IMG/VR virus record: IMGVR_UViG_2695420685_000016
Coordinates: 1-20,790 of that record
Length of the DNA stretch: 20,790 nt
Reading direction: 5' to 3' (one strand)
Source of the DNA: a virus
Lineage: Duplodnaviria > Heunggongvirae > Uroviricota > Caudoviricetes
Positions 2,749-10,235 of this stretch are shown here, in pieces. The notes beneath the pieces are model-generated. The model was given only the letters and a program-made list of their open reading frames with translations, searched no databases and was not told the DNA's origin. The position numbers and the translations under genes were made by a program. Every line of letters starts with the position of its first letter. The stretch's first letter is position 1.

Positions 2749-3348
2749 TTATGCATTAAGAAGGGTCAAAAGACGCTCACGCGCCATTCGTTCGTTAACA
2801 GCTTTCTTCAGCGCACCACTCGCCCGCGCTTCCTGCCAGGCTTTCATTGAGCGGACACCAGAGTCTGCGTCCTGATAGGCCGGATATGTCACCGGGCTGA
2901 CGTCATACAGACGAGAAATGCGCGTGATTTCCCGGATAACAATCCCCTCGTCGTCTTCATACCAGCTCTCTCCGTCACGGGCGACACGAAACGCGAACGA
3001 GGACTGATTAATGTCACCACGCAACATTGGAGACAGCACCAGGTCACAAATAGTCGGAGTATCCGGTGCAACAATGTCATAACGTAAACCGCGTTCATCC
3101 ACCGACAATGACAACGTGCCGGCAGAACTTCGTCCGAGAATGAAATTAGGATCATGATTAAACAAGCCACGTACATCATCATTCAGTACATCATCAAAAG
3201 CCCCCGGCTTGATGATTTCACGAAATCCCCACAGAGGTTCTGAACGACTGTTAAATACCGAGCCATACCCCAGAATGTGGGTCGGGGCATTATCATATTG
3301 TTCCGCCCGCACCTCCCCGCTGTAACAGCGCGTTTCACGGTCATTCAT
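2749..3348 (-). CDS. Prohead maturation protease (HK97 family)
   Basis: 199 aa ORF between portal and capsid; its start overlaps the portal stop (ATGAATGA), the classic portal-protease-capsid order. Confidence 0.8.
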   Translation of the reverse strand: MNDRETRCYSGEVRAEQYDNAPTHILGYGSVFNSRSEPLWGFREIIKPGAFDDVLNDDVRGLFNHDPNFILGRSSAGTLSLSVDERGLRYDIVAPDTPTICDLVLSPMLRGDINQSSFAFRVARDGESWYEDDEGIVIREITRISRLYDVSPVTYPAYQDADSGVRSMKAWQEARASGALKKAVNERMARERLLTLLNA

Positions 3349-7797: not shown

Positions 7798-7977
7798 TCC
7801 CCGCTTTATCCAAATTGCATTGCCAGAATGCCGACAACAGACTGACATTCAAATCCTGACTACCTCCGATAGGCTGAGCATCCACCTATATAGTTTTAAT
7901 TTTCATCAATCCATTTAACTATCGTTTAATTGTTGTCACATAGGATTCTGCCGTTTTTAACAATGCAGGATAATAAG

Positions 7978-8271
7978 ATGAAAAAAATGTTGTTTTCTGC
8001 CGCTCTGGCAATGCTTATTACAGGATGTGCTCAACAGACGTTTACTGTTGGAAACAAACCGACAGCAGTAACACCAAAGGAAACCATCACCCATCATTTC
8101 TTCGTTTCGGGAATTGGACAGGAGAAAACTGTTGATGCAGCCAAAATTTGTGGCGGCGCAGAAAATGTTGTTAAAACAGAAACCCAGCAAACATTCGTAA
8201 ATGGATTTCTCGGTTTTATTACTTTAGGCATTTATACTCCACTGGAAGCGCGTGTGTATTGCTCACAATAA
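7978..8271 (+). CDS. bor: Bor lipoprotein (serum-resistance outer-membrane lipoprotein)
   Basis: Product MKKMLFSAALAMLITGC... has a lipobox (LITGC) and is near-identical to lambda Bor as I recall it; opposite strand to Rz as in lambda; AGGA RBS upstream. Confidence 0.85.
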   Translation: MKKMLFSAALAMLITGCAQQTFTVGNKPTAVTPKETITHHFFVSGIGQEKTVDAAKICGGAENVVKTETQQTFVNGFLGFITLGIYTPLEARVYCSQ

Positions 8272-8302: not shown

Positions 8303-8779
8303 CTATCTGCACTGCTCATTAATATACTTCTGGGTTCCTTCCAGTTGTTTTTGCATAGTGATCAGCCTCTCTCTGAGGGTGAAATAATCCCGTTCAGCGG
8401 TGTCTGCCAGTCGGGGGCTGGTTGCATTATCCACGCCGGAGGCGGTGGTGGCTTCACGCACTGACTGACAGACTGCTTTGATGTGCAACCGACGACGACC
8501 AGCGGCAACATCAGCGCGCAGAGTTTCATTTTCAGCTTTCGCATTGGCTAATTCTCTCGAGTACTTTGCATCGAGTGCAGCAACATCACGCTGACGCTGC
8601 TGCATGTCAGCGATGGTGGCGATCGACTGCTTCAGCTCACTGACTTTTTTATCACGCTGTTCTTTGTAGGCGATGGCGTTATCACGGTAATGATTGACCG
8701 CCCACGACAGGCAGACGATGATGCAGATAACCAAAGCATAAATAATCGCGGCGACTCTGCTCACTGCTCTATCCCCCAA
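8303..8779 (-). CDS. Rz: Rz inner-membrane spanin
   Basis: C-terminal half matches lambda Rz from memory ([25 protein letters not shown]...QKYINEQCR); N-terminal TM segment; start may be the GTG 15 nt downstream of the listed ATG. Confidence 0.85.
8362..8544 (-). CDS. Rz1: Rz1 outer-membrane lipoprotein spanin, embedded in Rz in the +1 frame
   Basis: Product [41 protein letters not shown]... has a lipobox and proline-rich region matching lambda Rz1. Confidence 0.8.
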
Positions 8780-9294
8780 CAGGCTAATGCGCTTTCCTGG
8801 TCACGACGAATAACCTGTCCATAGCAGTTATTTGAACGTATGCGGCAATCGCGCCCACCATCTTTTATCCACCAGCGAATCGCCTCGCATGCGCCCTTAC
8901 GATCACCGGCATTCAGCCGCTTATAAAACGTCGACGGGAAACACTTACCGGGGCCAATGTTATAGGGACAGAATGACGCTATACCCGCTTTTTGTGGTTC
9001 GGTCAGTAGTACTTTAATATTGCGCTCCACCCATGCCAGCGCCTTATCACGCTCAATGGCGTTGACCTGGTCGCATTTTTCCTTCGACAGTTTCATACCG
9101 GGAAAAACGGGTTTTCCATCCACCATCGTGGCACCCCGACAGATGGTCCAGATGCCGGACCCATCGCGGTATGCCGTTGTGTGGTTACCTTCTTTTTCAT
9201 CCAGAAACTGGTCGAGAATATCAGGCGCGGGCGCACCGACGGCAATCAGTGCCAGAACGGCAGCCGACAGGCCGTATCTGATTTTTGCGTTCAT
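8761..9294 (-). CDS. R: SAR endolysin (T4-lysozyme-like muramidase, P21 R type)
   Basis: N-terminal signal-anchor-release segment ([17 protein letters not shown]) followed by a lysozyme E-D-T catalytic arrangement ([20 protein letters not shown]). Confidence 0.85.
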
Positions 9295-9357
9295 GGATAT
9301 TTATCAGGATTTATCGGTTTCTGCCCACGGACAGGTTTATCTGTTCCGGTCAGTGAC

Positions 9358-9708
9358 TTAAGGTTGTGATTCCGGAGGAGTCTTCAGAGAACCAGTAATT
9401 CTTCCCGGTAGCTTTCCTTTGTAGGTTATCCATACATTCTGCGCCTCTAAAATTACGGGGCGCTTTTCCGGCGACTGCTCATCCCCTTCACATAACCCGG
9501 CAGCAACATCCAGGAAGACCTGTCTGATGCTCATTCTGGCTGCTGCCTCATAAAACTCCAGCGCGGCACCTTCAACACGGTCCAGCGAGATATCCAGGTC
9601 AAAAATTTCACCGTCAAAGCGTTTTTTGTCCCGTAACGCTAAAGTTACCGTAACTTTATTCTCAAAATTGCGGATCCCTTTCACAATCAGTTCATAGTTT
9701 TGAGTCAT
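9358..9708 (-). CDS. Hypothetical protein (116 aa) inserted between holin and endolysin
   Basis: ATG at 9708 with GGGGAGAG RBS, 5 nt after the holin stop; no motif I recognise; a gene in the same position (ydfR) exists in the E. coli Qin prophage as far as I recall. Confidence 0.45.
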   Translation of the reverse strand: MTQNYELIVKGIRNFENKVTVTLALRDKKRFDGEIFDLDISLDRVEGAALEFYEAAARMSIRQVFLDVAAGLCEGDEQSPEKRPVILEAQNVWITYKGKLPGRITGSLKTPPESQP

Positions 9709-9712
9709 TGAA

Positions 9713-9928
9713 TTACTCTCCCCGTGCCGCCTTACGACGGTCCTCTCTGATTTTGAAATACAGGTTAGTCAGATATGTCAGCAGCCCAAACAGCAGACTC
9801 CCCAGCACGCCTATTGCCGCCCACTGAGACGGGGAAACCCTGTCCAGCAACTGCAGGAACCAGTAGCCCGTTCCCACCGCTGACGTGGTGTATGACACAC
9901 CTGTTGTGATTTTTTCCATCTGGTCCAT
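9713..9928 (-). CDS. S: Pinholin (S21-type class II holin) with dual-start motif
   Basis: Product [71 protein letters not shown] closely matches phage 21 S as I remember it; Met1 and Met4 give an antiholin/holin dual start; paired with a SAR endolysin. Confidence 0.8.
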
Positions 9929-10235
9929 ACCCCGTCTCCCGTTATCCGGAAGCTGACAACAATAAAAAAGCCACCAGTTAACTACTGATGGCTCTGATAA
10001 CTCATGCAAGCGTCTCAGACGACCCACTGACACTACCGGTGAGTTTAACGATACCTTCCATTTGACTGGCTCACTTTTTATGATGATGCCGGTGCATTTA
10101 TCTCCAGCACCAGACTTTCTATCTCAACGCCATACGTTGCATTTTTGGTAATATCCGTCAGCGTCAGTACATTTAGTCCCACTGCCAGACTGTCTTTTAT
10201 GGCCTGGAATGCCGGGCCAGTACGATGACGTAGTA

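What the first reader, a model, noticed from the sequence alone, without database searches (positions are those of the whole stretch)
9358..9708. Unknown gene embedded inside the lysis operon between pinholin and SAR endolysin
The canonical P21 cassette is S, R, Rz/Rz1 with no gene between holin and endolysin. Here a 116 aa ORF with a good RBS starts 5 nt after the holin stop and ends 64 nt before the endolysin. It has no TM segment or recognisable catalytic motif. A gene in the same position (ydfR) exists in the E. coli Qin prophage as far as I recall, also of unknown function. It could modulate lysis timing or SAR-endolysin release.
Basis: partly seen in the sequence, partly recalled or inferred. 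Interest (0 to 1): 0.55.

Follow-up and report, generated by a model that had tools for sequence, protein, structure and literature searches.

The report
YdfR-family cargo gene in lysis operon
The ORF is real, but it is a catalogued E. coli prophage gene (YdfR/DUF1327 family, function unknown) sitting in a fast-changing cargo slot between the holin and endolysin genes, and the comparative evidence argues against it being part of the lysis machinery.

Summary
Observation confirmed. A 116-aa ORF (9358-9708, minus strand) starts 4 nt after the pinholin stop and ends 63 nt before the SAR endolysin. It is PF07041/DUF1327 (E 5e-42), a "YdfR family protein". Identical proteins occur in sequenced phages, and related DNA is in 4314 of 5426 complete E. 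coli genomes. K-12 Qin ydfR occupies the same position.

The lysis-modulator reading is not supported. Among 77 informative cassettes with a ≥97% identical holin, 11 have nothing in the slot and 11 carry an unrelated gene. dN/dS is 0.4-0.9, against 0.05 (holin) and 0.08 (endolysin) in the same loci.

The protein is modular: a β-β-β-α core plus swappable tails. Distant homologues lie in tail operons or after Rz, paired with a convergent antisense gene.

The window's 63-nt spacer is a vestige of that antisense gene's promoter/leader block.

The only functional data are for K-12 YdfR, whose residues 1-72 (79% identical over the first 75 residues) associate with the RNase E catalytic half, and which co-purifies with RNA.

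Best reading: a late-expressed, moron-like cytoplasmic accessory protein, possibly acting on RNase E/RNA. Already known as a family; function open.

The parts
9358..9708 (-). ydfR-family ORF, 116 aa (DUF1327/PF07041), modules A+B
   Evidence: ORF list. Pfam E 5e-42. RefSeq name 'YdfR family protein' at 99.7% nt identity. 100% aa identity in phages vB_EcoS-716R1 and vB_EcoS-640R1.
9499..9708 (-). Module A (codons 1-70): conserved DUF1327 core, predicted beta-beta-beta-alpha domain
   Evidence: AF2 gives E4-13, E17-26, E33-42, H49-72 with block-mean pLDDT 72-89, and again in a second model. 79% identical to K-12 YdfR over the first 75 residues. It is the only part shared by all family members, including the 71-76-aa stand-alone forms.
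9358..9498 (-). Module B (codons 71-116 plus stop): swappable tail GLCEGDE...KTPP(ESQP)
   Evidence: Unrelated to the K-12 tail. Found joined to other modules, including without module A (P0146, a C-B protein). AF2 pLDDT below 50. The homology break with the 176-aa forms comes right after KTPP.
9709..9723 (-). Translation-initiation junction: SD-like GGGGAGAG inside the holin 3' end, holin stop TAA, 4-nt gap TTCA
   Evidence: Read directly from the sequence. The same junction drives whichever gene follows the holin (DUF1327, the C-D gene, or the endolysin itself) in 77 related loci.
9295..9357 (-). 63-nt spacer: endolysin 5' UTR (…CCGATAAATCCTGATAAATATCC) plus a vestige of the promoter/leader block of an antisense gene that is present in relatives but deleted here
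   Evidence: It aligns with the region upstream of the 90-aa antisense gene of L016. The conserved TATGTT (-10-like) is mutated here. No promoter, terminator or significant fold was found. No SD-like motif is visible upstream of the endolysin ATG.
9713..9928 (-). P21-type class II holin (pinholin), 71 aa, Met1/Met4 dual start
   Evidence: PF04971 E 9e-33. dN/dS 0.05 across related loci.
8761..9294 (-). R21-like SAR endolysin, 177 aa
   Evidence: PF00959 E 1.5e-23. The N-terminal segment [18 protein letters not shown] is read. dN/dS 0.08.
8303..8779 (-). Rz spanin with embedded Rz1 (8362-8544)
   Evidence: PF03245 E 2e-49. The Rz1 ORF carries a lipobox-like LVVVGC.
9967..9995 (-). Terminator-like hairpin just upstream of the holin (tR'-like start of the Q-dependent late operon)
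   Evidence: 12-bp stem followed by a T-run. An antitermination Q homologue lies upstream in the near-identical prophage L001.

Best explanation
The ORF is a YdfR/DUF1327-family accessory (moron-like) gene. It occupies a hypervariable cargo slot between the pinholin and SAR-endolysin genes of Escherichia lambdoid prophages.

Expression (inferred from anatomy): it is transcribed with S, R and Rz/Rz1 on the Q-dependent late transcript. It is translated from the Shine-Dalgarno sequence embedded in the holin 3' end.

Product (shown or predicted here): a soluble, acidic, two-module cytoplasmic protein. Module A is a beta-beta-beta-alpha core. Module B is a swappable tail.

Role (inferred from comparison): it is not a component of the holin-endolysin-spanin pathway. 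Ancestrally it belonged to a small mobile unit made of a DUF1327 gene facing a convergent, independently transcribed antisense gene. In this window the antisense gene has been deleted and only a vestige of its promoter/leader remains.

Mechanism (extrapolated from one study of the K-12 homologue): module A most likely acts late in infection by binding a host factor. The only experimentally indicated partner is the catalytic N-terminal half of RNase E, and/or RNA. That would let the phage adjust RNA decay or processing.

My probabilities: about 0.8 that it is an accessory gene not required for lysis, and about 0.3 that RNase E/RNA binding is the operative mechanism.
For: Family and range:
- PF07041 at E 5e-42.
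- The family is almost confined to Escherichia/Shigella. There were 7 loci among 185,579 species representatives and 64 clusters among 1.84e9 representative proteins.
- Related DNA is in 4314 of 5426 complete E. coli genomes.

Dispensable and variable slot:
- Of 77 informative IMG/VR cassettes with a ≥97% identical holin, 55 carry DUF1327, 11 carry an unrelated 185-213-aa gene, and 11 have the endolysin ATG at the same +4 position.
- DLP12 has no gene there.
- In the phage collection, 427 records have this holin but only 101 have DUF1327.

Fast, modular evolution:
- Intact ORF lengths run from 72 to 328 aa, built from shuffled modules.
- Module A alleles 48-51% identical to the window's lie next to near-identical holins.
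- dN/dS is 0.54-0.94 for module A and 0.39-0.68 for module B. In the same loci it is 0.05 for the holin and 0.08 for the endolysin.
- GC3 is 46%, against 65% (holin) and 55% (endolysin).

Mobility:
- DUF1327 plus a convergent small gene sits between gpM and gpL (L099), between gpI and gpJ (L098, L112-114), after Rz (L111), and between S and R (phage Evi, L100-110).
- All 15 loci with a phrog_25324 (as3) homologue have an A-only DUF1327 gene convergent with it: the 12 IMG/VR hits plus L099, L112 and L113. The Evi partner is 61% identical to that of L099.
- The two genes co-diverge: 67%/85% and 31%/61% identity for A/as3.

Vestige in the window: the spacer aligns with the antisense promoter/leader block of L016.

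Function lead: K-12 YdfR residues 1-72 give two-hybrid signals with the RNase E and RNase G N-terminal parts. Rne1-598 co-purifies with Strep-YdfR, and DNase-resistant nucleic acid co-purifies too (PMC13232886). Module A of the window is 79% identical to K-12 YdfR over the first 75 residues.
Against: - No experiment exists on this protein or on any phage deleted for it.
- The RNase E association of K-12 YdfR was not tested with purified proteins or after nuclease treatment. It could be RNA-bridged, and overexpression changed few transcripts.
- The protein is acidic (pI 5.2), which is unusual for an RNA binder. The basic His-rich K-12 tail that might bind RNA is not shared.
- RNase E is highly conserved, so it does not obviously explain the allelic diversification.
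- The gene has no promoter or terminator of its own, so it is not a textbook moron.
- Its invariant position immediately after the holin stop in E. coli is also what a lysis-linked role would predict.
Confidence: 0.45

Rival explanations
1. Lysis modulator. The protein tunes pinholin triggering or SAR-endolysin release, for example by binding the charged cytoplasmic C-terminal tail of the pinholin. Alternatively, its translation sets the S:R expression ratio.
For: - In Escherichia it always starts 4 nt after the holin stop and takes over the SD in the holin 3' end. The endolysin behind it has no visible SD.
- It is co-transcribed with S, R and Rz; no internal promoter or terminator was found.
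- In K-12 the ydfR stop overlaps the rrrQ start.
- The Keio ydfR deletion scored in an envelope-leakiness (CPRG) screen (PMC3879167 supplement). I think this could equally be read-through from the resistance cassette into rrrQ (my inference).
- From established knowledge, cytoplasmic lysis regulators do exist (T4 RIII).
Against: - Absent from P21-like DLP12, from 22 of 77 cassettes with a near-identical holin, and from most deposited phages with this holin.
- No co-variation with S or R: alleles 48-51% identical, and unrelated tails, sit beside the same S and R.
- dN/dS is roughly 10 times that of S and R.
- Homologues lie in tail operons.
- An unrelated gene can fill the same slot.
Confidence: 0.12
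2. Orphaned half of a two-gene conflict module. DUF1327 is the late-expressed partner (antidote or regulator) of the convergent, lysogeny-expressed antisense gene. In this window the partner is deleted, so the gene is a leftover with reduced or altered function.
For: - Obligate pairing and co-divergence of A-only DUF1327 with phrog_25324 at four different insertion sites.
- About 50 of about 80 E. coli DUF1327 loci carry an antisense ORF from at least 7 families.
- These antisense genes share a conserved -10-like box and structured leader. The phrog_25324 gene (L100) and the L112-L114 loci also have a terminator hairpin at the convergent junction.
- The window's spacer is a vestige of that block.
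- High dN/dS fits a conflict gene.
Against: - The partner-less A-B form is common and intact: 9 loci in the sample, and the P0001 cluster has 1129 member sequences.
- The antisense cassette also occurs opposite the unrelated C-D gene, without module A (L063). So pairing in E. coli may be positional only.
- No PADLOC or Pfam hit for any component.
- No expression or toxicity data.
Confidence: 0.18
3. Functionless passenger. It is a decaying remnant kept open only because it lies inside an essential operon and its translation does no harm.
For: - Within-allele dN/dS approaches 1 (0.94 for the A2 alleles).
- Presence/absence polymorphism.
- K-12 ydfR is barely expressed, and its overexpression has little effect.
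- Many carriers are probably defective prophages.
Against: - Only about 4 of 62 complete ORFs look truncated.
- Frames of up to 328 codons are maintained.
- The domain's length and hydrophobic pattern are preserved down to 24-39% identity in Yersinia/Cronobacter-type relatives.
- It is present in plaque-forming or inducible phages (mEp460, Stx phages).
- Between-allele pN/pS is about 0.5 with dS saturated.
Confidence: 0.12

Closest known systems
E. coli K-12 YdfR (b1555, P76160), Qin cryptic prophage
   Same: Same Pfam family. Same position, essQ-ydfR-rrrQ. Module A is 79% identical over the first 75 residues, and this includes residues 1-72, which gave the RNase E/RNase G two-hybrid signal.
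   Different: The C-terminal tails are unrelated. K-12 is 103 aa and its stop overlaps the endolysin start. The window protein is 116 aa and is followed by a 63-nt spacer.
Phage morons (for example lambda bor/lom and the HK97/HK022 morons; definition quoted in PMC2629481)
   Same: Present or absent at a precise junction between otherwise homologous operons. Lower GC than its neighbours. No role needed for morphogenesis or lysis. In relatives the antisense partners have a -10-like box, and a terminator hairpin where examined (L100, L112-L114).
   Different: The DUF1327 gene itself has no promoter or terminator and depends on late-operon transcription and the holin's SD. It would therefore be expressed in lytic growth, not in the lysogen.
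Phage proteins that target RNase E (T4 Srd, T7 gp0.7, phiKZ Dip; from established knowledge)
   Same: A small phage-encoded cytoplasmic protein for which association with RNase E is reported. For YdfR the target is the N-terminal catalytic half, as for Srd.
Accessory lysis regulators (S21-71 antiholin, T4 RI/RIII, P1 LydB, Mu releasin; from established knowledge)
   Same: Encoded inside a lysis cassette and co-expressed with the holin and endolysin. RIII is likewise small and cytoplasmic.
   Different: No homology. It is dispensable in near-identical cassettes, does not co-vary with the holin or endolysin, and its family members also occur outside lysis cassettes.

Membership tests
DUF1327 / YdfR family (PF07041) | Match to the Pfam HMM above the gathering threshold | tested here: met
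   142.4 bits against a cut-off of 25, E 5.3e-42. Protein residues 1-112 match profile positions 1-92 of 93.
DUF1327 / YdfR family (PF07041) | Homology to the name-giving K-12 YdfR | tested here: met
   79% identity over the first 75 residues; the tails are unrelated. RefSeq names the 99.7%-identical gene 'YdfR family protein'.
DUF1327 / YdfR family (PF07041) | Position directly downstream of a P21-type holin in Escherichia lambdoid prophages | tested here: met
   ATG 4 nt after the holin stop in the window and in all 55 DUF1327 loci of the sample except L032, where the holin match is truncated.
P21-type lysis cassette machinery (pinholin, SAR endolysin, spanins) | A TM/SAR segment, a muralytic domain or a lipobox, as in S21, R21 and Rz/Rz1 | tested here: not met
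   Maximum KD19 of 1.03, acidic and soluble. Pfam finds only DUF1327.
P21-type lysis cassette machinery (pinholin, SAR endolysin, spanins) | Present in all cassettes of the type | tested here: not met
   Missing in DLP12, in 22 of 77 near-identical cassettes, and in about 75% of phage records with this holin.
Lysis regulator (antiholin/releasin-like) | Changes lysis timing or endolysin release | not testable with these tools
   Needs induction curves of isogenic constructs.
Lysis regulator (antiholin/releasin-like) | Co-inheritance or co-variation with its holin or endolysin partner | tested here: not met
   Alleles 48-51% identical, unrelated tails, or no gene at all lie beside ≥97% identical holins and about 90% identical endolysins. 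Homologues occur in tail operons.
Moron (Hendrix/Juhala sense) | Insertion at a gene junction when related operons are compared | tested here: met
   Empty, DUF1327-filled and otherwise-filled versions of the same junction. Four different insertion sites in relatives.
Moron (Hendrix/Juhala sense) | Own promoter and terminator (independent expression) | tested here: not met
   None found for ydfR in the window. Only the antisense partners in relatives show a -10-like box, a leader and, where examined, a terminator.
Moron (Hendrix/Juhala sense) | Base composition different from the surrounding operon | tested here: met
   GC 46.7% and GC3 46%, against 54%/65% for the holin and 53%/55% for the endolysin. 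The difference is modest.
RNase E-binding / RNA-binding phage proteins | Physical association with RNase E or RNA | not testable with these tools
   Reported only for K-12 YdfR, by two-hybrid and lysate co-purification without a nuclease control (PMC13232886).
RNase E-binding / RNA-binding phage proteins | Sequence or fold similarity to Srd, Dip or dsRBD proteins | tested here: inconclusive
Known anti-phage defence systems (PADLOC) | Match to a defence-system protein model | tested here: not met
   No hits for the window protein, the long forms, the C-D gene or the antisense proteins tested.

The most novel reading that the evidence does not exclude
DUF1327 genes and the convergent antisense genes that face them may form a previously undescribed kind of mobile phage conflict cassette.

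The cassette would consist of a late-operon-driven modular protein with a beta-beta-beta-alpha core, facing an independently transcribed payload gene. That payload comes from at least 7 unrelated families, and most share one conserved -10-like box and structured RNA leader. A terminator hairpin follows in the loci examined.

One possible logic is a lysogeny-expressed effector that is silenced or neutralised when the late operon fires. The cassette hops between late-operon junctions (S|R, after Rz, gpM|gpL, gpI|gpJ). The window would then carry a solo, partner-deleted copy of it.
Probability: 0.15. Interest if true: 0.7.

Novelty: already known. Interest (0 to 1): 0.4.

Why it matters
The gene family is found in about 80% of complete E. 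coli genomes and in Stx-converting phages. It sits inside one of the best-studied phage operons, yet it has no assigned function.

This analysis gives three concrete experimental handles:
- The gene behaves as fast-evolving, modular cargo rather than lysis machinery.
- Its core domain has one candidate host partner, RNase E.
- In relatives it is coupled to a conserved antisense cassette with a structured leader.

For this particular window the practical message is simpler. The gene is an ordinary, catalogued YdfR-family member and should be annotated as such.

Tried and rejected
- **Sequence searches.** A profile search of PDB sequences gave only noise, CENP-P at E 1.4. A lenient Pfam scan of 11 diverse core domains gave nothing but DUF1327 (ROF at E 0.16). 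NCBIfam had no model. PADLOC had no hit. The PHROGs hits are all 'unknown function'.
- **Rosetta-stone attempt on fused modules.** The C-D gene family is E. coli-only and all 'hypothetical'. AF2 of a 296-aa A-B-C-D form gave pLDDT 46, so I ran no fold search on it.
- **Giant repeat protein.** A 3128-aa protein (P0161) hit by phmmer aligns at 33% over 52 aa, repeated six times. I treat this as spurious.
- **Spacer 9295-9357 as a regulatory RNA or terminator.** The fold z-score is 0.11, and no promoter or terminator was found.
- **Literature.** Only one paper mentions DUF1327, and only in passing. The envelope-screen paper lists ydfR only in its supplementary tables.

Full report
**1. The observation**

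The ORF lies on the minus strand at 9358-9708: ATG at 9708-9706, 116 codons, stop at 9360-9358. Upstream on that strand is a 71-aa P21-type holin (9713-9928; PF04971, E 9e-33). Downstream lie a 177-aa Phage_lysozyme protein with a SAR-like N-terminus (8761-9294), then Rz (8303-8779) with Rz1 embedded at 8362-8544.

Four nucleotides (TTCA) separate the holin stop from the ATG. An SD-like GGGGAGAG lies in the last holin codons. Sixty-three nucleotides separate the ORF's stop from the endolysin ATG.

A strong terminator-like hairpin at 9995-9967 sits just upstream of the holin. No promoter or terminator lies between the ORF and the endolysin. The gene is therefore part of the late operon.

The protein is soluble and acidic, with pI 5.2 and no TM segment.

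**2. Identity**

The protein matches PF07041 (DUF1327) at E 5e-42. The same gene at 99.7% nucleotide identity is annotated 'YdfR family protein' in RefSeq, inside a near-identical prophage (L001). Identical proteins occur in sequenced E. coli phages.

Related DNA is found in 4314 of 5426 complete E. coli genomes, with up to 9 places per genome.

The family is narrow:
- 319 hits in a 5.8-billion-protein index, and those that carry a source name are almost all Escherichia/Shigella.
- 64 clusters among 1.84 billion representative proteins.
- 7 loci in 185,579 species-representative genomes, all Escherichia/Shigella apart from one MAG labelled Veillonella parvula, which I take to be misbinned.
- A few remote members in Yersinia rohdei and Cronobacter malonaticus.

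**3. Anatomy of the protein**

Alignment with K-12 YdfR shows 79% identity over the first 75 residues, and then completely unrelated tails.

Across about 60 related loci the protein is a mosaic of modules:
- Module A is the DUF1327 core, about 70 aa.
- Module B is GLCEGDE…KTPP, which the window has.
- Module C is a coiled-coil segment (…SEDEKKRRDEQFAAFYDYC).
- Further modules are C', D and a K-12-type tail.

Observed combinations include A alone (71-76 aa), A-B (114/116 aa, the window's form), A-B-C (176/183 aa), A-B-D (268 aa), A-B-C-D (296 aa), C-D without A (185-213 aa) and C-B (P0146).

AF2 predicts module A as three beta-strands followed by a long helix, with block-mean pLDDT 72-89. Module B is not confidently modelled. 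Fold and profile searches give only weak, generic matches.

**4. The slot is hypervariable and the gene is dispensable**

I fetched 80 IMG/VR loci whose holin is ≥97% identical to the window's. Of these, 77 were informative:
- 55 carry a DUF1327 ORF. The gap after the holin stop is 4 nt in every case except L032, where the holin match is truncated.
- 11 carry an unrelated 185-213-aa gene at the same offset.
- 11 have the endolysin ATG itself at that offset.

DLP12 (essD-rrrD) also has nothing in between. In the phage collection, 427 records carry this holin type but only 101 carry DUF1327.

Module A comes in alleles only 48-51% identical to the window's, next to near-identical holins.

Pooled Nei-Gojobori dN/dS values:

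| Gene or module | dN/dS |
|---|---|
| Module A, within alleles | 0.54-0.94 |
| Module B | 0.39-0.68 |
| Holin, same loci | 0.05 |
| Endolysin, same loci | 0.08 |

The frame is nonetheless kept in all but about 4 of 62 complete ORFs. The domain pattern survives to 24-39% identity. GC3 is 46%, against 65% and 55% for the flanking holin and endolysin.

**5. The family is not tied to lysis cassettes**

Remote DUF1327 genes lie between tail genes: gpM|gpL in L099, and gpI|gpJ in L098 and L112-L114. In L111 the gene lies after Rz. In L098, L099 and L111-L113 the gene is followed by a small convergent ORF.

The convergent ORF of L099 is 61% identical, over its full length, to the one that follows the 72-aa DUF1327 gene of E. 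coli phage Evi, where the pair lies between holin and endolysin.

All 12 IMG/VR homologues of that antisense protein (phrog_25324), plus L099, L112 and L113, are convergent with an A-only DUF1327 gene. The two genes co-diverge: A 67% and partner 85% identity in one comparison, A 31% and partner 61% in another.

In E. coli, about 50 of about 80 DUF1327 loci have an antisense ORF between DUF1327 and the endolysin. These ORFs come from at least 7 unrelated families. The five tested against PHROGs each matched a family of unknown function.

Most of these antisense genes share one upstream block. It has a conserved TATGTT box followed by a hairpin leader. The outer stem is UCAGCC/GGCUGA. The inner stem is fully replaced by compensatory changes in some loci, and G-U pairs favour the antisense strand. 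No Rfam family matches it. A GC-rich terminator hairpin sits at the convergent junction in L100 and L112-L114.

**6. What the window has**

The window's 63-nt spacer aligns with that promoter/leader block in L016, a locus with a 114-aa A-B gene plus a 90-aa antisense gene. In the window the TATGTT box is mutated and the antisense ORF is missing. The window therefore carries a solo A-B gene next to the scar of a deleted antisense cassette. This partner-less form is common: 9 loci in the sample, and the P0001 cluster has 1129 member sequences.

**7. Function**

The only experimental data concern K-12 YdfR (PMC13232886):
- A fragment of residues 1-72, which is module A, was recovered with RNase G as bait. 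It also gives two-hybrid signals with RNase E constructs that contain the catalytic half.
- Rne1-598 co-purifies with Strep-YdfR from lysate.
- DNase-resistant nucleic acid co-purifies as well.
- Overexpression changes few transcripts.
- There was no nuclease control or purified-protein test for YdfR.

Two screens list ydfR, as an envelope-leakiness hit (deletion) and as giving a 3-fold higher streptomycin MIC as a candidate survival gene. The first could be a polar effect on rrrQ (my inference).

I therefore commit to the following. This is a late-expressed, moron-like cytoplasmic accessory protein that is not required for lysis (probability about 0.8). Its core domain most likely works by binding a host factor, with RNase E/RNA the only candidate that has data behind it (about 0.3).

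The rivals are a lysis modulator (0.12), an orphaned partner of the antisense cassette (0.18), and a functionless passenger (0.12).

**8. Comparison and novelty**

The gene is a bona fide member of the catalogued YdfR/DUF1327 family, so as a feature it is already known. It resembles morons in its insertion pattern and composition, but it lacks its own promoter and terminator. It shares no homology with known lysis regulators or with known phage RNase E effectors.

As far as the searchable literature shows, three things appear to be undescribed:
- The S|R junction as a modular hotspot.
- The mobile DUF1327-plus-antisense unit.
- The shared structured leader.

All three lie mostly outside this window and rest on computation alone.

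Noticed in passing
L100 2412-2470; L007 3659-3703; L045 4385-4429; L098 3531-3586; L099 1018-1066; L112 3074-3128 (not present in the window): A conserved block lies upstream of antisense genes from unrelated protein families. It has a TATGTT box followed by a hairpin leader. The outer stem is UCAGCC/GGCUGA, and the inner 7-8-bp stem is fully replaced by compensatory changes in some loci. No Rfam match. It is a candidate new cis-regulatory RNA, or a cassette hallmark.
   Followed up: partly
L028 2846-3403, L059, L075, L078, L085 (185 aa); L026 and L063 (213 aa): An alternative gene fills the same slot 4-5 nt after the holin stop (MNHEEMNQRFSRLENEIAELNKKL…). It has no Pfam or PADLOC hit and is found only in E. 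coli. Its N-terminus is homologous to the C-terminal extension of the 176/183-aa YdfR forms, and its C-terminus to the tail of the 268/296-aa forms.
   Followed up: partly
L098 3001-3506; L099 449-1001; L112/L113 2501-3045; L111 2498-3034: A DUF1327 gene plus a convergent small gene is inserted in tail operons (gpI|gpJ, gpM|gpL) and after Rz. This shows that the pair moves as a unit between late-operon junctions.
   Followed up: yes
window 9916-9928 (holin N-terminus): The holin keeps the Met1/Met4 dual start of S21, but the extension is Met-Asp-Gln rather than Met-Lys-Ser as in K-12 EssQ (and, as I recall, P21 S). The positive charge that, as I recall, is thought to make the longer S21 product an antiholin is replaced by a negative one.
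   Followed up: no
window 9295-9325: The endolysin has no visible SD. Its 5' UTR contains a direct repeat, TGATAAAT-CC-TGATAAAT, that is conserved upstream of the endolysin in all cassettes with a filled slot, including K-12 in part.
   Followed up: no
window 7930-8271 (+): A Bor/Iss-type lipoprotein ORF (MKKMLFSAALAMLITGC…) lies antisense to the late operon, just after Rz. The equivalent gene is annotated iss in the near-identical prophage L001. It is a classical moron next to the lysis genes.
   Followed up: no
window 10684-11019 (+) and 11045-11234 (-): An IraM-like anti-adapter ORF (NCBIfam PRK09919, E 5e-48) and an STnc100 sRNA match (132 bits) lie between the Q region and the holin. DUF1737 (10236-10439, minus strand) is also here.
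   Followed up: no
window 11931-12007 and 12109-12184 (-); 15174-15349 (-): Two prophage tRNA genes were found: Arg-tct and a CAT anticodon. The CAT gene is called Met by ARAGORN and is annotated Ile in RefSeq L001. There is also a sok antitoxin RNA match, from the hok/sok locus (hokD in L001).
   Followed up: no
P0133 (206 aa) and L042 (328-aa ORF starting at 3221): Longer forms carrying the K-12-type tail continue into a segment (…VLSLMYKEDYDP…EARAREYALSVFAA…) that looks by eye like a second, diverged copy of the module A fold. K-12 YdfR may be a truncated version of such a protein.
   Followed up: no
P0161 (3128 aa; repeats at about 381, 791, 1201, 1611, 2021 and 2431): A giant protein rich in G2F domains matches module A at 33% identity over 52 aa in six near-identical repeats (phmmer E 3e-9). 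This is probably inflated by the repeats.
   Followed up: partly
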